Below, in pieces: positions 1 to 20,000 of a stretch of DNA of 20,000 nt (positions are counted from its first letter, which is position 1; each line of letters begins with the position of its first letter). Below the pieces are notes generated by a model, which saw only the letters and a program-made list of their open reading frames with translations, did not search any database and had not been told where the DNA came from. Source of the DNA: an uncultured virus (IMG/VR IMGVR_UViG_3300042905_002851) (taxonomy: Duplodnaviria; Heunggongvirae; Uroviricota; Caudoviricetes). Location: the IMG/VR virus record IMGVR_UViG_3300042905_002851; one strand, written 5' to 3'. The position numbers were made by a program, and so were the translations under genes.

Positions 1-466
1 GTGAAATGTCCCCATTTCAATATTTCAAGACTACTTCGAAACTAACCCCTTGGTAGAAGTCGGTTAAGGTTAATAACGGCACCACCCGTACGTTAACATA
101 CCTTTCGGTTTTAAGTATCCTATGATACTGGAACCCGCAATAACAACATTGGAAATATTGATTCTTGCAACGTCCCTACGAGTTATTCCTATTGGAGTTC
201 CCTCCTCAACAAGATGACCCACATCACCTCGTCATAAAATCACTTTCCCTACACCGTTGGCCTCGGTACTAAAGATCTTATGGTATCTCGCCTGTGTACT
301 CGACCTCAATATTCCGAAGACTATTGAGACGCAAACCCGTTACACTTGGGGGTTCACTTTATCCTACTTTCGTAGTTTATTTTATGGACTATACACGGCC
401 CAATATCTTTATCAGTTTCACTCTTAAACCCGAAGGTTCTTAACCTAATCCTGAACGGATAATATC
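1..466 (-). ncRNA. Large structured non-coding RNA, 3' part outside window; tentatively GOLLD/ROOL-class phage RNA
   Basis: No long ORF and clearly more GC-rich than flanks. Minus-strand hairpins: cUUCGg (427-438, 305-328), GAAA (364-375, 100-109), GGAA (194-205), GGGA (3-18), plus a 10-bp G-U-containing stem near 206-231. Tetraloops read correctly only on the minus strand. Lies downstream of two promoters and a boxA-like element. Family name is inferred from size and context. Confidence 0.8.
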
Positions 467-471
467 TAAAA

Positions 472-501
472 TTTCAAAGAACTTTATCGGACGTTTCCGA
501 T
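472..501 (-). promoter_or_regulatory. rrn-like leader: hairpin (486-501) followed by boxA-like GUUCUUUGAAA (472-482)
   Basis: AUCGGA-AACG-UCCGAU hairpin then AAGUUCUUUGAAAUU; near-identical element at 7453-7463. Confidence 0.55.
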
Positions 502-509
502 TTGTTTTA

Positions 510-541
510 CAAAGATAAGAATACTTTTTGAATTTTCCAAA
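510..541 (-). promoter_or_regulatory. Bacteroidota-type housekeeping sigma promoter P2 of the large ncRNA
   Basis: Minus strand TTTG-N20-TATCTTTG matches the -33 TTTG / -7 TAnnTTTG consensus. Confidence 0.8.
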
Positions 542-609
542 TTTTTTCTAAACTTTTTTGTTTTTTTTTGAGATTTGTGTCTGAACTGTTATCTACCTCA
601 TTTGTCTTA

Positions 610-640
610 CAAAGATAATAACTTTATTTTGTTATATCAA
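610..640 (-). promoter_or_regulatory. Bacteroidota-type promoter P1 of the large ncRNA
   Basis: Minus strand TTG-N20-TATCTTTG; 500-518 and 600-618 match at 18 of 19 positions, exactly 100 bp apart. Confidence 0.7.
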
Positions 641-657
641 GTAATTTGTAATATTTT

Positions 658-795
658 TTAATATTTTTCTATATAAACATCATATGTTCCATAGTATTGT
701 GCTCTTAGTTGTGCAAATACTAAATTAGATGTCCACATTTTTTTTCCGTTGGCAATATAAACATACATTTCAACAATTTTAATTTCCTCTACCAT
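658..795 (-). CDS. Small hypothetical protein (45 aa, MVEEIKIVEMYVYIANGKKMWTSNL...)
   Basis: Hand-translated ATG..TAA ORF with A-rich upstream region, not in ORF track; fills the gap co-directionally. Confidence 0.6.
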   Translation of the reverse strand: MVEEIKIVEMYVYIANGKKMWTSNLVFAQLRAQYYGTYDVYIEKY

Positions 796-852
796 AATTT
801 TTTTATTTTATATTTAAAAATATATAATATATATAAACATTAGTCAAATTTA

Positions 853-2262
853 TTAAAGATTTTTTTTCATTAAATCTTTCATTCGATTAACCTCTTCATT
901 AATTTTATGTGTTTTTTTGTTTTCACTTATGTTACTTGTTGAATTTGAAGATCCGCCAATATAGTATAAATGCCAAGGTTCTGGAATTCTTAATTTTCCT
1001 GTGTTAACATATGTTACCTCAAACCCATATTTGCTCGCATTTTTTGATACCCATTCCTTAACATCTTTATTTGCGTCCCACCACGAATTTTCCACACTAA
1101 AAATATCAAAAGCTTTTCCTGTGTGATGTTGACTAAATCCAGGTAAAGAATTTGATTTTTGCGTATCATCAACCCCTCTTGTTTTAGCCTTTGTTCCAAA
1201 ATTTAAAACTTGGTCGTCATAACTTCTATAACCTGATACGATATCAGACGGATATTTTACATTAGGGTAATCAAGTTTACAATCTTTTATTAATTCTTTA
1301 ACTTTTTTCTCGGCCTCTTTATTAACTCCACCATTATCAGGACTTGGATTTCCTTCCATCTTAAACTCTTTATCTATATTATCTTGTGTAATATTTAAAT
1401 TATACGGCGATTTTTTTAACTTTTCTATTGAAGACAAAACACCTGATGGTAGTTTGGTGTCTTTTATGTTTTGACTATTTTTAATTGTTAGTTTTTCGTT
1501 TCCAGATTTTTTACCAGGAGAAAACATATCCAACCAACCCATTAATTCTTTACCCCCAAATAAACTAAACAAAGAGTTATTATTTTTGGTATCACCACTT
1601 ACATCATTAGTTGTTGTATCATTAGTTGTTGTATCATTAGTTGTTGTATCGGTATTTGTTGTGGTTGGTATACCAGAATTATCTTTAAAATCATCCACAG
1701 ATGGTGGTGATGAAGAGTTTTGGAGTCTATTTGAAATGTGTAAGTGGTTGTAGTGATTTCCTCCAATGTTTGTGTGCCACAAAACTGCCTTGTCTTTACC
1801 ACTCTCGGTATTCCATGTATATCCCATTGACACTAACGCATCTTTTAATTTAAACCCTAATTCTCTAAATTTTGCCAACCCATTTGTTGCGTTAGACGCT
1901 CCTCCTGAACCAACACCGTCTAATATTGCAACATCAACACCAGTACCGTTCATATGCCTACTTACATTTTTAGATCCTTTTACATTTCTATTATGTCCTG
2001 TTTTAGCGGTGGTTATTGTTGCAACAATTCCTACAGATTTTGCGGCAGCATTTATATCATCTAATAACGGTTTATTAACAGAATCGTTTTGGGTTCCATC
2101 ACTATCAAATTTTAAATTTGGATAATTAGTGCTATTAAGTTTAACTAAATTAAGATCTTCATTAATTATATTTTTGTTATTTAATATGTCATCATATTTA
2201 GAAATGATCTCTATTATTATATCATTTTCTTTTATGTGATTTCTATGAAAATTATTACTCAT
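853..2262 (-). CDS. Two-domain peptidoglycan peptidase: N-terminal M15-like (Hedgehog/DD-peptidase fold) domain, Thr/Asp linker, C-terminal VanY-like M15B domain
   Basis: Domain 1: SRHMNGTGVD...HYNHLHIS. Domain 2: SGYRSYDDQ...PGFSQHHTGKAFD...EPWH (SxHxxGxAxD and ExxH motifs). Confidence 0.8.
   Translation of the reverse strand: MSNNFHRNHIKENDIIIEIISKYDDILNNKNIINEDLNLVKLNSTNYPNLKFDSDGTQNDSVNKPLLDDINAAAKSVGIVATITTAKTGHNRNVKGSKNVSRHMNGTGVDVAILDGVGSGGASNATNGLAKFRELGFKLKDALVSMGYTWNTESGKDKAVLWHTNIGGNHYNHLHISNRLQNSSSPPSVDDFKDNSGIPTTTNTDTTTNDTTTNDTTTNDVSGDTKNNNSLFSLFGGKELMGWLDMFSPGKKSGNEKLTIKNSQNIKDTKLPSGVLSSIEKLKKSPYNLNITQDNIDKEFKMEGNPSPDNGGVNKEAEKKVKELIKDCKLDYPNVKYPSDIVSGYRSYDDQVLNFGTKAKTRGVDDTQKSNSLPGFSQHHTGKAFDIFSVENSWWDANKDVKEWVSKNASKYGFEVTYVNTGKLRIPEPWHLYYIGGSSNSTSNISENKKTHKINEEVNRMKDLMKKNL
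1603..1650. repeat. 15-bp tandem repeat x3 encoding DTTTN linker
   Basis: ATCATTAGTTGTTGT repeated three times. Confidence 0.95.
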
Positions 2263-4655: not shown

Positions 4656-4659
4656 ATTA

Positions 4660-4667
4660 CAAATATA
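4660..4667 (-). promoter_or_regulatory. TAnnTTTG -7 element, near-leaderless
   Basis: TATATTTG-taat-ATG. Confidence 0.6.
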
Positions 4668-6639: not shown

Positions 6640-6663
6640 AATAGTTATTTTTTTAAAGTTTAG

Positions 6664-6736
6664 CGGTCCCGACGGGATTCGAACCCGTATCTCGCACCGT
6701 GACAGGGTGGAATTGTAACCATTCAACCACGGGACC
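6664..6736 (-). tRNA. trnD: tRNA-Asp(GUC)
   Basis: Acceptor GGUCCCG/CGGGACC, anticodon loop CU-GUC-AC, T arm ACGGG-UUCGAAU-CCCGU, G73; CCA not encoded. Confidence 0.93.
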
Positions 6737-6816
6737 AAGTTTATCAGTCTTTCCTGATCGTCACCCCTAACCCACAGGTATGAACCCGTATCGTAGTAAA
6801 GCTTGGTTAGCTATAG

Positions 6817-6888
6817 TAGTCCCACCGGGAATCGAACCCGACTTTCCAGGATGAAAACCTGACGACCTAACCGATAGTCGATGGGACC
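6817..6888 (-). tRNA. trnE: tRNA-Glu(UUC)
   Basis: Acceptor GGUCCCA/UGGGACU, UCAGG-UUUUCAU-CCUGG, T loop UUCGAUU. Confidence 0.95.
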
Positions 6889-6895
6889 AAAAATA

Positions 6896-6956
6896 AGGGT
6901 AGACACGGGCCTAGCTAGCCATCTTTCAGGAAAGGCCCTTACGAATATTCTACCCT
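6896..6956 (-). ncRNA. Unidentified ~60-nt structured RNA in tRNA spacer
   Basis: Nested perfect stems AGGGUAGA/UCUACCCU and GGGCCU/AGGCCC. Confidence 0.5.
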
Positions 6957-6961
6957 TTTAG

Positions 6962-7034
6962 TTGCGGGAACAGGGCTCGAACCTGTAATCTCGGCTTATG
7001 AGACCGAGCGGATGACCAATTTCCACATCCCGCG
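6962..7034 (-). tRNA. trnM: tRNA-Met(CAU), initiator-like
   Basis: CGCGGGA/UCCCGCA with C1xA72 mismatch; UCGGU-CUCAUAA-GCCGA anticodon arm; T loop UUCGAGC. Confidence 0.9.
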
Positions 7035-7039
7035 ATATG

Positions 7040-7113
7040 TAGTTAATACTGGACTCGAACCAATGACCTATTCCGTATCAGGGAATCGCTCTAACCAACT
7101 GAGCTAATTAACT
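7040..7113 (-). tRNA. trnI: tRNA-Ile(GAU)
   Basis: AGUUAAU/AUUAACU acceptor, GCUC/GAGC D stem, AUUCC-CUGAUAC-GGAAU, T loop UUCGAGU. Confidence 0.93.
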
Positions 7114-7188
7114 ATATTCTCGTCTTTCCGAGATGTCAATAGGGATATTTTGTGTACAATTCAGGACTCTCATATACTTCCTTAGTTG

Positions 7189-7342
7189 TAGTCAGGACAG
7201 GATTCTAACCTGCATGAACACTTTGAATTTTACCTACGCACAGTGAGGTAGTGTTCTTCATCATTCGCATTGCCTTTTCAAAGTGCACTTATTCAAGGTT
7301 GCCGTGCGTGTCACTATGTGTCTAACATTCCACCACCTGACT
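7189..7342 (-). ncRNA. 154-nt tRNA-like RNA: acceptor, D and T arms with a ~100-nt structured insert in place of anticodon and variable arms
   Basis: AGUCAGG/CCUGACU-A acceptor; GUG-GAAUGUUAGA-CAC Leu-like D arm; GCAGG-UUAGAAU-CCUGU T arm; no canonical anticodon arm. Confidence 0.75.
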
Positions 7343-7351
7343 ATTTTAATT

Positions 7352-7444
7352 TTGTAGTTAAGTAGCTGACACACACTCTCGTTTCACCATCTTATGTCAA
7401 CAGGTTAATGCACTTTACGAGTTTCCCGTTTCTTACCACCACAA
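7352..7444 (-). ncRNA. Unidentified ~93-nt structured RNA at head of tRNA operon
   Basis: Closing stem UUGUGGU/ACUACAA, hairpin ACGGG-AAA-CUCGU, 9-bp stem GUUGACAUA/UGUGUCAGC. Confidence 0.5.
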
Positions 7445-7452
7445 TATTTTAA

Positions 7453-7514
7453 TTTCAATGAACTTCTTATTTCTTCACGGGAGTAGGACACCAACCTCTC
7501 ACTTCCTACCCCCG
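7453..7514 (-). promoter_or_regulatory. rrn-like leader: 11-bp hairpin (7478-7514) then boxA-like GUUCAUUGAAA (7453-7463)
   Basis: CGGGGGUAGGA/UCCUACUCCCG stem; AAGUUCAUUGAAAUU matches the element at 472-482. Confidence 0.55.
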
Positions 7515-7526
7515 TTGTTTCTCTTA

Positions 7527-7558
7527 CAAATATATGGCGTTTGTTTTAAACTGCCAAA
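7527..7558 (-). promoter_or_regulatory. Bacteroidota-type promoter of the tRNA/ncRNA operon
   Basis: TTTG-N20-TATATTTG. Confidence 0.8.
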
Positions 7559-7580
7559 CATTTTATGAAAATTTTTTAAT

Positions 7581-8078
7581 TTATTTTATCTCAAATGCAC
7601 ATCTCATGATTTTTTTAGTCTTGGTGGCATCTTCAGGGTTTCCAATAACAACACCATCTTTGATTGTAAACGCATGTCGGTTAACAAGAACAAAGAATGT
7701 GCCTTTTGGGTTTTGTTTAACAAATGTGCCCACAGTCATGTTTCTTTTCTTTGTTTCACCTTTGATTGTCACATCATACATTAATGATCTTAACATTTGG
7801 TCATTATGTCTTATCCCAACAGGACGAATTTTTTTGCCGTTAACCTTAAACAAACTGTCACCCATTTTGACAAGTTTAGATACCGTTCCGTATGTACCAT
7901 TTCTTGGTTTTCTTCCAAATTCATCGGCAACATACCTGTGAGCATAATCATAAGATACTTCAAATGAAGACGCAAATGCTCTAACAACACAATCATTTCT
8001 TTCGCCTTTGGCGGTTGATGACTCAGTATATCCTTTAATTGCGTTTCCTGTGGCTTCGTATGGTAGTTTGTTTTTCAT
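7581..8078 (-). CDS. Hypothetical phage protein with NDCVVRA...HAF motif
   Basis: Start likely MKNKLPY (8078), 4 nt after a TATCTTTA element. Confidence 0.8.
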   Translation of the reverse strand: MKNKLPYEATGNAIKGYTESSTAKGERNDCVVRAFASSFEVSYDYAHRYVADEFGRKPRNGTYGTVSKLVKMGDSLFKVNGKKIRPVGIRHNDQMLRSLMYDVTIKGETKKRNMTVGTFVKQNPKGTFFVLVNRHAFTIKDGVVIGNPEDATKTKKIMRCAFEIK

Positions 8079-8101
8079 ACTGTAAAGATACAAATTTTTT
8101 T

Positions 8102-8197
8102 TTAAATCAAGCCATATTGGTTTAATTCGTATAAATATTTTTCATAGTTTTCTGAGTTAATAAACTCTTCGTGAATTTGTTGGTGTATATCTTCCAT
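8102..8197 (-). CDS. 31-aa microprotein
   Basis: MEDIHQQIHEEFINSENYEKYLYELNQYGLI; AAAAAACA leader, directly after tRNA-Arg. Confidence 0.5.
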   Translation of the reverse strand: MEDIHQQIHEEFINSENYEKYLYELNQYGLI

Positions 8198-8216
8198 TGT
8201 TTTTTTAATTAAATTG

Positions 8217-8288
8217 TAGTCCCGCCTGGATTCGAACCAGGAATAGAAGATTAGAAATCTACTGTGATATCCCTTTCACTACGGAACC
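8217..8288 (-). tRNA. trnR: tRNA-Arg(UCU)
   Basis: GGUUCCG/CGGGACU acceptor, GUGA/UCAC D stem, loop UU-UCU-AA, CCUGG-UUCGAAU-CCAGG. Confidence 0.92.
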
Positions 8289-8294
8289 ATGGTA

Positions 8295-8480
8295 TCAAAT
8301 CTTCTTAATTTCGTATTTATGGCCCGAATCGGTGTTGGTATTTAATATGTTTACCATCTCTTGGACTTTGTCTTTATCATCAAATTCCCACACCTCTCCT
8401 TGTTCGTTTAACATTATCACAGGCAGTATTCGGTTATTTGGAAGACTAACGTTTTTAATAATTACAAATATATTATTCAT
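8295..8480 (-). CDS. Hypothetical protein (61 aa)
   Basis: Start MNNIFVII overlaps upstream stop (ATGAATAA), suggesting translational coupling. Confidence 0.75.
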   Translation of the reverse strand: MNNIFVIIKNVSLPNNRILPVIMLNEQGEVWEFDDKDKVQEMVNILNTNTDSGHKYEIKKI

Positions 8481-9168
8481 TGTATAACATTTCAATAAGT
8501 TCAACATCAATTGGTGCGTATTCTGTTGTTGTTGTCCAACCTTGATAATAAATACTTTCAGGGTATTTGTAAGAGTCATTAAACAACCCTAAAGATTGTG
8601 TTAACTCTTCACGAAGTAAGTGTTTTTGTTCTACTTCATTTGCTCTATTGATATCAACATACATATAACCTTTTACCGATCCAACACTAAAAAGACCCCA
8701 ATTATTTGTTAATAAAGAACGATCTAAATTTGGGCAATAATTGGCAAAACCATCACTTGACCCAAGATAAATAAACATATTGGCATCTTTAGGGTTTTTA
8801 ACAATTTCTATTTCAATAGTGTTAATAATATTATTAAGTTCTGAAACAATATCATTTAATTCTACCATCAAATAATCAATTTTTTCGCCCTCAACATATA
8901 TTTTCATGTTTTTATTCCATTTGAAGGCACTTTCCCTTTTTCCTTTAAATTCGGTATTAAAAACAATTTCATTAAAATAGTCTATTGTTTCTTGAGATCT
9001 TTGTATTTTTTTTGGGGTGTATCCACCGCCATCAGATACCGTCTGTTCGTTTTGCGAATAGAGGTTTTTATTTGTATCATTGGTTTTTTGAGGCTTTACA
9101 TTTAAAAGGCAAAAAACAAAGAAACCTATAATTAATAGGGAAGACAGAGGGCTTATTGTGTTTTTCAT
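8473..9168 (-). CDS. Membrane-anchored/secreted DUF2927-like (zincin-related) protein
   Basis: N-terminal hydrophobic segment; HLLREELTQSLGLFNDS motif; promoter TTTG-N19-TATCTTTG at 9185-9215. Confidence 0.7.
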   Translation of the reverse strand: MKNTISPLSSLLIIGFFVFCLLNVKPQKTNDTNKNLYSQNEQTVSDGGGYTPKKIQRSQETIDYFNEIVFNTEFKGKRESAFKWNKNMKIYVEGEKIDYLMVELNDIVSELNNIINTIEIEIVKNPKDANMFIYLGSSDGFANYCPNLDRSLLTNNWGLFSVGSVKGYMYVDINRANEVEQKHLLREELTQSLGLFNDSYKYPESIYYQGWTTTTEYAPIDVELIEMLYNE

Positions 9169-9184
9169 AGTAGATTAATTTCTA

Positions 9185-9215
9185 CAAAGATATATAAAAA
9201 AATTAGATAAACAAA
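9185..9215 (-). promoter_or_regulatory. Bacteroidota-type promoter
   Basis: TTTG-N19-TATCTTTG. Confidence 0.7.
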
Positions 9216-13900: not shown

Positions 13901-13908
13901 TATATTTG
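13901..13908 (+). promoter_or_regulatory. TAnnTTTG -7 element
   Basis: TATATTTG 15 nt before the lipoprotein ATG. Confidence 0.55.
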
Positions 13909-13923
13909 TAAAAACAATTAAAT

Positions 13924-19137: not shown

Positions 19138-20000
19138 CTATTTAACTAATGTTAAATTACCTATAAATTCATTTATTTTGTCAGTTTTAGGTGTTTTAAA
19201 TCTTAATTTCCAAGTATAAACACCATCTTGACATGGTTTATCGTCATAATTACCATCCCAACCCATGTTTGTGTTATAAGATTCCCATATTATCTGTCCC
19301 CAACGGTTATATATTACAAATACATAGTTAAAAACGTCTACTCCTGACGTAATTATGGGTTTAAATGTGTTATTTCTTTCATCACCATTAGGTGTAAAGG
19401 CGTTTGGTATGTAAAATATCTCATTTGGACACAATTCTAAGGTTACAATGAAGTTTTCGGGGTTAGAAACACATCCATTGTCCCATCTAACCACTTGAAA
19501 TTGGAATATTCCATCTTGATCCCAAGTAATATTTAATGTTTGACTAATTGTTGTGTCTCCAAACGAGTACCATTCGTTATATCCACCACTTGCAGACACT
19601 GCATCAAAGATATCGGTAATGGTATCTCCCTCACATATCTCATGATACTCGGTATTTTCAAAAACAACACCGTTTACAACAGGAGAAATGAGTGGTCTTG
19701 GGTATACTTGAACATTTATTGATGTATTAAACAAACAACCTGACTGAATATAGTTGTAATTCACAACATCAAGACCAATAAATCCGTTATTTGGACAGTA
19801 TTGTCCACCCCAAACGTTTAATCCACTAAAAATTCCACCTTGTGGGGTACCATTTAGGTTAATACAGTTGTCATATTCACAAAATGGACCAACTTGAGTG
19901 ATTGATGGAAGAATATTTAACACAACAAGGTTAAAAGTTTCAGGTAATGACTGACATCCAAGTTGATTAACACCAATAACCGATAGTGAGTTAGGGTAAT
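19138..20000 (-). CDS. Ig-like repeat protein with gliding-motility-associated C-terminal domain (T9SS type B CTD), 5' truncated
   Basis: FYIPNAFTPNGDERNNTF...IYNRWGQIIWES...WDG...GVYTW...GNLTLVK; frame stays open from 19923 to the window end (YPNSLSVIGVNQLGCQS...). Confidence 0.85.
   Translation of the reverse strand, partial: YPNSLSVIGVNQLGCQSLPETFNLVVLNILPSITQVGPFCEYDNCINLNGTPQGGIFSGLNVWGGQYCPNNGFIGLDVVNYNYIQSGCLFNTSINVQVYPRPLISPVVNGVVFENTEYHEICEGDTITDIFDAVSASGGYNEWYSFGDTTISQTLNITWDQDGIFQFQVVRWDNGCVSNPENFIVTLELCPNEIFYIPNAFTPNGDERNNTFKPIITSGVDVFNYVFVIYNRWGQIIWESYNTNMGWDGNYDDKPCQDGVYTWKLRFKTPKTDKINEFIGNLTLVK

What the first reader, a model, noticed from the sequence alone, without database searches (positions are those of the whole stretch)
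1..466. Large, tetraloop-rich phage non-coding RNA running off the left edge (GOLLD/ROOL-class candidate or new family)
Seen: at least 460 nt without a credible ORF, GC-richer than the flanks, and packed with minus-strand hairpins: AAC-CUUCGG-GUU, CUCAAUA..CUUCGG..UAUUGAG, CUAC-GAAA-GUAG, ACC-GAAA-GGU, GGAG-GGAA-CUCC, GAAAUG-GGGA-CAUUUC and UGGGC/GUCCA. It sits behind two consensus promoters, suggesting high expression. Known: GOLLD and ROOL are 600-800+ nt phage/tRNA-associated RNAs of unknown function that can form multimeric RNA assemblies. Inference: this is such an RNA in a Bacteroidota jumbo phage; I cannot confirm the family by eye.
Basis: partly seen in the sequence, partly recalled or inferred. 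Interest (0 to 1): 0.85.

Follow-up and report, generated by a model that had tools for sequence, protein, structure and literature searches.

The report
Front half of a GOLLD RNA

Summary
Window 1 to about 503 (minus strand) is the first ~500 nt of a ~900-nt GOLLD RNA gene.

- **The missing half.** A viral contig identical to window 1-1744 continues leftwards. Rfam GOLLD (RF02032, 287 bits, full model) starts exactly at window base 1. Rfam models only the 3' half, so the window itself gives no hit.
- **What the window holds.** It holds the 5' "cap" domain. This domain shares long identical motifs, in the same order, with the cryo-EM-solved env-38 GOLLD.
- **Fold support.** In 48 distinct homologues, 97.5% of cells pair and 81 of 111 pairs show compensatory changes.
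- **Leader.** Upstream lie two Bacteroidota-type promoters, a 5' hairpin and GUUCUUUGAAA. That motif also sits upstream of 16S in 43 of 73 Bacteroidota-type rRNA leaders and in 0 of 64 16S bodies. It is a boxA-like leader, which I infer recruits host Nus factors.
- **Expression.** Eighteen metatranscriptome runs hold the sequence.
- **Host phage.** Probably a ~290-kb freshwater jumbo phage of Bacteroidota.

This scan has met GOLLD many times on other DNA, and earlier notes already flagged the rRNA-style leader. The family is known and interest is low.

The parts
610..640 (-). Distal promoter: TTG (640-638), a 20-nt spacer, then the -7 box TATCTTTG (617-610).
   Evidence: The motif TATCTTTGTAA (up to 1 mismatch) occurs 12 times in the window against 1.53 expected, and 0 of 200 shuffles reach 12. 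The sequence was read. TAnnTTTG is the -7 box of Flavobacterium and Bacteroides (PMC7641319, passages). That it works as a promoter is inferred.
510..541 (-). Proximal promoter: TTTG (541-538), a 20-nt spacer, then the -7 box TATCTTTG (517-510). The predicted start is near 503.
   Evidence: The region is conserved in 13 of 14 rows of alignment A1. The start site is inferred, not measured.
486..501 (-). 5'-terminal hairpin AUCGGAAACGUCCGAU, in the place of boxB.
   Evidence: One search lists it as a 6-bp stem with a 4-nt loop. L001 has a different hairpin at the same place. B. subtilis rrn leaders likewise begin with a small hairpin followed by boxA (PMC13753749, passages).
472..482 (-). boxA-like element GUUCUUUGAAA.
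   Evidence: - Exact match in the window.
- TTCTT..A is invariant in 48 of 48 homologues.
- Found at a fixed distance in 52 of 55 GOLLD loci of this type and in 0 of 25 others.
- The same motif (up to 1 mismatch) lies upstream of 16S in 43 of 73 Bacteroidota-type leaders, against 0 of 64 16S bodies and a shuffle mean of 0.84.
403..471 (-).
   Evidence: The region aligns poorly and varies in length in A2. Part of it is absent from L016 and L052. It lies upstream of the point where the solved env-38 construct begins.
2..402 (-). GOLLD 5' (cap) domain, the equivalent of P1-P13. Nineteen to twenty consensus helices, one of them loop-to-downstream (396-391 with 299-294).
   Evidence: - nhmmer profile hits in 55 of 80 GOLLD loci.
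- 111 pairs: 97.5% of cells paired, against 36-41% when slid. 81 pairs have changes on both sides, and 0 of 500 shuffles reach this.
- Motif order matches env-38, with identical runs of 28 and 21 nt.
1..1 (-). First base of the Rfam GOLLD (RF02032) 3'-domain model. The remaining ~403 nt lie beyond the left edge.
   Evidence: The L018 GOLLD hit spans 1744-2147 (+) at 287 bits. L018 1744-1 equals window 1-1744 at 100% identity.

Best explanation
**What it is.** Window 1 to about 503, read on the minus strand, is the front of a ~900-nt GOLLD RNA gene of a freshwater jumbo phage that most likely infects Bacteroidota.

**Order along the RNA**
1. Two tandem Bacteroidota-type promoters.
2. A 5' hairpin.
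3. A boxA-like GUUCUUUGAAA.
4. A variable spacer.
5. The ~400-nt 5' domain.
6. Beyond the window's left edge, the conserved 3' domain that Rfam models.

**Inferred by homology.**
- The 5' domain matches the solved env-38 GOLLD (833 nt, a 14-mer cage). By that homology the RNA folds on its own and assembles with copies of itself into a hollow RNA-only cage.
- In that cage the 5' domains, which are the part in this window, form the two caps. The 3' domains form the rings.

**Inferred from the leader.**
- The leader copies the host's rRNA-operon leader.
- I infer that it loads the host NusB-S10 and the Nus antitermination complex.
- A long untranslated RNA would then be made fast, without Rho termination, and with help in folding.

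**Purpose.**
- What the cage is for is unknown in the literature.
- Because it sits with a tRNA array and a tmRNA gene, my best guess is a role in the phage's takeover of translation, such as holding or organising tRNAs or ribosome parts.
For: **Shown**
- 13 viral loci hold window 1-40 exactly.
  - 10 have a full GOLLD hit (285.9-291.1 bits, cut-off 150) that starts at the base matching window 1.
  - 1 has a truncated hit.
  - 2 are cut by contig ends.
- L018 is 100% identical to window 1-1744 and carries the hit at 287 bits.
- A 635-kb phage record has the same layout.
- The 5' domain recurs in 55 of 80 loci picked by a 3'-domain motif.
- Covariation in 48 distinct sequences: 97.5% of cells paired, 81 of 111 pairs changed on both sides, slid controls 36-41%.
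- The env-38 construct printed in the paper's supplement has the same motifs in the same order, with runs of 28 and 21 identical letters.
- env-38 residues 1-420 form the cap and 421-833 form the ring.
- boxA tests.
- 18 RNA runs, spread over at most 16 studies, hold at least half of the sampled words of window 1-520.

**Inferred**
- Cage assembly by this copy.
- Nus loading at the leader.
- The biological role.
Against: - The window holds only 1 nt of the Rfam-modelled half, and its own assembly is not held. Continuity therefore rests on an identical contig.
- The RNA runs are kept as contigs. They cannot show strand, ends or level, and an RNA run may hold the sequence as DNA.
- No read mapping was obtained.
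- The 3' end is not defined. No terminator-like site follows the last helix; the next lies 245 nt on, after a 61-aa ORF.
- The comparison with env-38 was by eye, not by alignment.
- The boxA motif never varies, so it carries no covariation signal, and binding to NusB is untested.
- 30 of 73 rRNA leaders lack the motif at up to 1 mismatch.
- 0 of 25 other GOLLD loci have it, 23 of them with full upstream sequence. It is therefore not a general GOLLD feature.
Confidence: 0.95

Rival explanations
1. The GUUCUUUGAAA element and its hairpin are not a Nus-loading site. They are some other conserved leader signal, for example a processing site that frees GOLLD from upstream RNA, or part of the promoter region. 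On this reading the likeness to rRNA leaders says nothing about function.
For: - The motif never varies, so nothing ties it to a partner.
- In L001, GOLLD follows a tRNA instead of a promoter and still keeps the hairpin and motif. That would suit a processing signal.
- rRNA leaders are processed too.
Against: - The same 11-mer and its common variants (GAAT, GACA, GATA, GAGA) sit in sense upstream of 16S in 43 of 73 leaders, against 0 of 64 16S bodies and 2 of 73 in reverse complement.
- 38 of those 43 have a stable fold in the 45 nt before the motif.
- It differs by one letter from the B. subtilis boxA core, which binds NusB.
Confidence: 0.35
2. The window RNA is a stand-alone 'half GOLLD': a 5' domain transcribed on its own, not joined to the 3' domain.
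For:
- The two domains fold separately in the solved structure.
Against: - In every one of the 11 loci with enough sequence, the 3' domain follows with no gap.
- No terminator-like site lies between them.
Confidence: 0.02
3. It is a new RNA family, or a fragment of rRNA, an intron, tmRNA, RNase P or ROOL.
For: No Rfam family reaches threshold inside the window stretch itself.
Against: - That gap is explained. RF02032 models only the 3' half, which begins at base 1.
- The best other hit is GEBRO at 11.6 bits, E 0.92.
- The motif order matches the env-38 5' domain.
Confidence: 0.01

Closest known systems
GOLLD RNA env-38 (Rfam RF02032). Cryo-EM 14-mer cage, Kretsch et al., Nature 2025, PMC12286853; listed as PDB 9MEE in PMC12990946.
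   Same: - Two-domain layout.
- A 5' domain of about 400 nt with the same motif order and identical runs of 28 and 21 nt.
- A 3' domain that scores 287 bits in the identical contig.
- A variable A-rich linker after the first 3' hairpin.
- Phage origin, close to tRNA genes.
   Different: - This copy has about 100 nt of extra leader (hairpin, boxA-like motif, spacer) ahead of the point where the env-38 construct starts.
- It has its own Bacteroidota-type promoters. env-38 is described as lying downstream of a Met-tRNA.
- Cage formation and copy number are untested here.
Streptococcus agalactiae GOLLD (700 nt, 12-mer; reviewed in PMC12990946, passages seen).
   Same: Same family and the same conserved 3' domain. 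The 5' domain caps the cage.
   Different: - The Sag RNA lacks P9, P11a-c and P21b and is about 200 nt shorter.
- The window RNA has a full-length 5' domain like env-38.
- 25 of 80 GOLLD loci sampled here lack this 5' domain type, 2 of them cut by contig ends. Whether they are Sag-like was not tested.
ROOL RNA
   Same: A large ornate phage RNA near tRNA genes that forms an RNA-only cage.
   Different: - Unrelated sequence and fold.
- No ROOL hit in any Rfam scan here.
rRNA-operon leader (boxB hairpin and boxA; the Nus-factor antitermination complex).
   Same: - Hairpin, then GUUCUUUGAAA, close behind the promoter.
- The motif matches Bacteroidota 16S leaders.
- It is one letter from the B. subtilis boxA core.
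- Two promoters about 100 nt apart. That rRNA operons have the same arrangement is my recollection.
   Different: - It precedes a phage cage RNA, not rRNA.
- Binding of Nus factors has not been shown.
- No boxC was identified.

Membership tests
GOLLD RNA (RF02032) | Conserved 3' domain scoring above Rfam's gathering score (150 bits). | tested here: met
   Not inside the window, which holds 1 nt of the model. Met in L018, which is 100% identical to window 1-1744: 287 bits, model 1-416, starting at window base 1.
GOLLD RNA (RF02032) | A 5' domain (P1-P13) directly upstream, homologous to that of described members. | tested here: met
   Same motif order as the env-38 construct, with identical 28-nt and 21-nt runs; compared by eye. 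Helices supported by covariation. Stem numbers could not be assigned because the figures are not held.
GOLLD RNA (RF02032) | About 800 nt or more, in a phage or prophage, near tRNA genes. | tested here: met
   - About 905 nt from the predicted start to the end of the model.
- Five tRNA genes at 6663-8288.
- A tmRNA gene about 350 nt beyond the RNA.
- Relatives lie in phage genomes of 260-320 kb.
GOLLD RNA (RF02032) | Self-assembly into a multimeric RNA-only cage. | not testable with these tools
   Known for env-38 and Sag GOLLD. Here it is inferred from homology only.
ROOL RNA | A match to the Rfam ROOL model. | tested here: not met
   No ROOL hit in the window or in 14 related loci.
rrn-type antitermination leader (boxA) | A boxA sequence like that of the host group's rRNA leaders, promoter-proximal and preceded by a hairpin. 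| tested here: met
   - 43 of 73 Bacteroidota-type 16S leaders carry the motif at up to 1 mismatch, against 0 of 64 16S bodies.
- The window has the exact motif at 482-472, four bases after the hairpin at 501-486.
rrn-type antitermination leader (boxA) | Binds NusB-S10 and makes RNA polymerase resistant to termination. | not testable with these tools
No paper in the searched library holds both GOLLD and boxA.

The most novel reading that the evidence does not exclude
GOLLD genes of this large clade of low-GC jumbo phages carry a copy of the host's rRNA-operon leader: tandem promoters, a 5' hairpin and boxA. The phage would so borrow the host's Nus antitermination and RNA-chaperone machinery to mass-produce and fold its cage RNA. 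The same promoter-hairpin-boxA layout ahead of the phage's tRNA array (window 7534-7453) would make this a general way for the phage to express its stable RNAs. I found no paper linking GOLLD to boxA, although earlier notes of this scan had flagged the likeness.
Probability: 0.45. Interest if true: 0.45.

Novelty: new member of a known kind. Interest (0 to 1): 0.22.

Why it matters
**The RNA itself.**
- It adds little. GOLLD has been described since 2009, as cited, and its cage structure was solved in 2025.
- This scan has met it many times.

**Practical lessons.**
- Rfam's GOLLD model covers only the 3' half. The ~400-500-nt 5' half therefore looks like an unknown RNA whenever a window or contig cuts the gene.
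- The 48-sequence alignment and its helices could seed a model of the 5' domain.

**The one possibly new point.**
- The rRNA-style boxA leader is shared by 52 of 55 GOLLD loci of this type.
- If it works as inferred, it says how phages make large amounts of a long untranslated RNA.
- It also gives a simple handle for expression studies: mutate boxA.

Tried and rejected
- **Rfam on the window stretch.** Nothing above noise: GEBRO at 11.6 bits, E 0.92.
- **The nearest held virus record, G001.** It covers the window only from about 3308 onwards, so it did not help.
- **A closing helix between the leader and the domain's 3' end.**
  - RNAalifold proposed it on 14 sequences.
  - On 48 sequences only 79% of cells pair, and it clashes with a well-supported helix. 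Rejected.
- **Pairing of the conserved leader UUAUCC with GGAUAA.** Rows that change the first do not change the second (by eye). Dropped.
- **Read laying.** It returned nothing, so transcript ends, strand and level stay unknown.
- **ARAGORN on L018.** It found no tmRNA, although Rfam scores one at 104.6 bits.
- **The 339-nt spacer ahead of tRNA-Ile.** No Rfam match and z -0.65, so no case for a structured RNA there.
- **The GOLLD alignment in the Nature paper's supplement.** Stems could therefore not be numbered P1-P13.

Full report
**1.
- Window 1-466 has no ORF longer than 56 aa.
- GC is 0.425 in 1-400, against 0.255-0.29 in the following 1.2 kb.
- The minus strand of 1-480 folds to -137 kcal/mol, z -3.33, and 0 of 100 shuffles fold as well.

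**2. Rfam sees nothing in the stretch, and why.**
- With curated thresholds the window gives only five tRNAs.
- A permissive scan of 1-800 gives only noise; the best hit is GEBRO at 11.6 bits, E 0.92.
- The reason became clear from relatives. A distant BLAST hit to a 634,780-bp uncultured phage record (72% identity over window 173-668) has a full Rfam GOLLD match (RF02032, 287.3 bits, E 4.9e-82). The match lies on the same strand, directly downstream of the stretch that aligns with the window.
- RF02032 has 416 positions and models only the 3' half of the RNA.

**3. The missing half lies just off the left edge.**
- The window's own assembly is not held. The nearest held record covers the window only from about 3308 onwards.
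- An exact search for window bases 1-40 found 13 viral loci. On these:
  - 10 have a full-length GOLLD hit (285.9-291.1 bits, cut-off 150).
  - 1 has a hit cut by the contig end (182.8 bits).
  - 2 end 225 and 39 nt past the 40-mer and give none.
- In every hit, model position 1 is the base that matches window base 1.
- L018 is 100% identical to window 1-1744 and carries the hit at 287 bits.
- The gene therefore runs from about window 503, through base 1, and another 403 nt to the left. That is about 905 nt in all.

**4. The window part is a conserved, folded domain.**
- A profile of the window's 5' part matched 55 of these 80 at E 3.4e-50 or better.
- Of the 25 that did not match, 2 are cut by contig ends.
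- From these 55 hits and the loci I aligned 48 distinct sequences, with mean column identity 58%.
  - 13 exact duplicates and two truncated rows (L036, L073) were dropped.
  - Loci on the same contigs as rows already present, or standing for the same near-identical group, were also left out.
- On the RNAalifold consensus, 97.5% of 5,318 cells form standard pairs, against 36-41% when partners are slid by 1-3 columns.
- 81 of 111 pairs show changes on both sides, and 0 of 500 shuffles reach any observed measure.
- The sequences are related, so the shuffle count is not a probability. The slid controls and the many pair types per position make the case.
  - Five are among these helices.
  - UGGGC/GUCCA pairs in all cells, with one covarying pair. 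Its loop pairs with a stretch about 95 nt downstream (6 pairs, 100% paired, 2 covarying).
  - AAC-CUUCGG-GUU lies in a variable spacer.

**5. The domain is the known GOLLD 5' domain.**
- What the papers say:
  - Kretsch et al. (bioRxiv 10.1101/2024.12.08.627333 and Nature, PMC12286853; passages read) solved GOLLD env-38. It is 833 nt and forms a 14-mer cage with D7 symmetry.
  - They call the 5' region 'less conserved'.
  - A review (PMC12990946; passages) assigns P1-P13 to the 5' domain and P14-P27 to the 3' domain. It also describes a shorter 700-nt Streptococcus agalactiae GOLLD that forms a 12-mer.
- What I compared:
  - The env-38 construct is printed in the Nature paper's supplementary file 1. 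It shows the same motifs in the same order as the window RNA, and the shared motifs include runs of 28 and 21 identical letters.
  - I compared these by eye only.
  - The construct begins at the GGCCG stem, which matches window position ~402. Window 403-503 is therefore extra leader.

**6. The leader looks like an rRNA-operon leader.**
- Promoters.
  - On the minus strand there are two promoters of the Bacteroidota type: TTG or TTTG, 20 nt, then TATCTTTG, with -7 boxes at 617-610 and 517-510.
  - The motif TATCTTTGTAA at up to 1 mismatch occurs 12 times in the window against 1.53 expected; 0 of 200 shuffles reach 12.
  - Several copies sit just upstream of ORFs.
  - TAnnTTTG is the -7 box of Flavobacterium and Bacteroides (PMC7641319; passages).
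- Hairpin and motif.
  - Right after the proximal promoter come a hairpin (501-486) and GUUCUUUGAAA (482-472).
  - TTCTT..A is invariant in all 48 aligned sequences.
- The lead.
  - Two earlier notes of this scan on related lake-phage GOLLDs had called such a leader rRNA-like, so I tested it.
  - In B. subtilis, rrn operons start with a small hairpin followed by a boxA-like AUGAUCUUUGAAA that binds NusB. The E. coli consensus is UGCUCUUUAACA (PMC13753749; passages).
- The test on rRNA leaders.
  - I fetched 80 loci around a Bacteroidota-type 16S 5' end. Most titles are Bacteroidota and a few are labelled otherwise.
  - Among the 73 with at least 200 nt upstream, 43 carry GTTCTTTGAAA at up to 1 mismatch in sense orientation, mostly 90-280 nt before the 16S start.
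  - Controls: 2 of 73 in reverse complement, 0 of 64 in the 16S body, and a mean of 0.84 of 73 in shuffles, with a maximum of 5.
  - 38 of the 43 have a stable fold (-5 kcal/mol or lower) in the 45 nt before the motif.
- The test on GOLLD loci.
  - The motif lies at a fixed distance, 735-799 nt before the 3' motif, in 51 of the 55 loci with this 5' domain.
  - A 52nd locus (L043) has matches only further upstream. At the usual place it has a 2-mismatch variant.
  - The three misses are two contig-end cuts and one 2-mismatch variant (L026).
  - It is in 0 of the 25 other loci. A relaxed pattern gives 35 of 53 against 0 of 23.
- Reading.
  - I take the element to be a boxA that recruits host NusB-S10 and the Nus complex.
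  - This would protect a long untranslated RNA, with a C-rich unstructured linker, from Rho, and would help it fold.
  - This step is inferred and nothing here tests binding.
- Literature. No paper in the searched library holds both 'GOLLD' and 'boxA'. Of the four that hold 'GOLLD' and 'antitermination', the three that I read by passages do not connect them. The fourth is the preprint twin of one of them, seen in the listing only.

**7. Context.**
- The window also encodes five tRNAs on the same strand (6663-8288).
- Protein matches:
  - a VanY-type peptidase (853-2262);
  - a Pyr_excise-like protein (2278-2751);
  - a DUF2927 protein (8473-9168);
  - a protein with a CHU_C type IX secretion sorting domain (19138-19923). 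That this secretion system is typical of Bacteroidota is my own knowledge.
- PHROGs matched 4 of 16 proteins.
- Just beyond GOLLD in the identical contig lie a 61-aa ORF with a lipoprotein-like signal, a terminator-like hairpin, and a tmRNA gene on the opposite strand.
- Relatives carrying this GOLLD type are phage records of 262,603 to 322,477 bp, estimated 84-100% complete. G001, the nearest record, is 80,391 bp at 28% completeness, which implies roughly 290 kb.
- 'Bacteroidota jumbo phage' is therefore well supported, though the host is inferred.

**8. Expression.**
- 18 runs on record as RNA, all metatranscriptomes of fresh water, lake water or sediment, hold at least half of the sampled words of window 1-520. 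The 23 listed runs come from 16 studies.
- They are kept as contigs, so they show presence only, not strand, ends or level. Some could hold the sequence as DNA.
- Read laying gave no result.
- For the family, one paper reports that a Lactobacillus brevis prophage GOLLD builds up during lytic growth yet is dispensable (PMC7567579; passage).

**9. Verdict.**
- The stretch is an ordinary, full-size member of a known family whose structure is solved and whose purpose is still unknown. It is not a new family.
- This scan has reported GOLLD on other DNA many times: 1,415 notes hold the word, and four look-alike windows were all read as ordinary GOLLD.
- The only part that may be new to print is the boxA-type leader, which earlier notes of this scan had already spotted and which I tested against real rRNA leaders.

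**10. Left open.**
- The window's true left flank.
- The transcript's ends and strand.
- Whether this copy forms a cage, and of how many chains.
- Whether Nus factors bind the leader.
- The numbering of stems against the published P1-P13. The figures are not held, and the supplementary GOLLD alignment was cut when stored.

Noticed in passing
window 7114-7534 (-): The tRNA array has the same front as GOLLD: a promoter motif TATATTTGTAA (7534-7524), a GC-rich hairpin, then GTTCATTGAAA (7463-7453). That variant is also seen in 5 of 43 rRNA leaders. A 339-nt gene-free spacer then precedes tRNA-Ile. The spacer has no Rfam match and z -0.65. It is 81% identical over 521 nt in a 292-kb relative.
   Followed up: partly
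L018 2501-2910 (opposite strand to GOLLD); L010 4398-5000; L022 1041-1643; L019 118-341: - A tmRNA gene lies about 350 nt beyond GOLLD in five relatives, at 100-105 bits. ARAGORN misses it in L018.
- In L010 and L022 the tmRNA hit is weak (52 bits) and overlaps a group I intron hit (89-90 bits).
- L019 shows the intron hit (98 bits) near its contig end.
- The tmRNA gene therefore seems to be interrupted by a group I intron in some relatives.
   Followed up: no
L018 2185-2412 (+), left of the window: A 61-aa ORF with a lipoprotein-like signal (…TLMTAC) starts 38 nt after the last GOLLD helix. A terminator-like hairpin follows it. No terminator-like site separates it from GOLLD, so the two may be co-transcribed.
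   Followed up: partly
window 19138-19923 (-): A phage ORF carries a CHU_C type IX secretion sorting domain (52.4 bits). That is a host-type export tag inside a phage genome.
   Followed up: no
L024, L029, L035 and 22 other loci: 25 of 80 viral loci with the GOLLD 3' motif lack this 5' domain type and the boxA-like motif. Two of them are cut by contig ends. Their mean GC is 0.40, against 0.34 for the others. Their 5' halves were not examined.
   Followed up: no
window 4657-4667, 8462-8472, 9182-9192 (-); 13901-13911 (+): The promoter motif TA..TTTGTAA recurs just upstream of ORF starts or RNA genes on the matching strand. It could serve to map this phage's transcription units.
   Followed up: no
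L032 (record G006): One 262,603-bp relative that carries this GOLLD type is classed as a provirus by its source. The others are classed as linear phage records.
   Followed up: no
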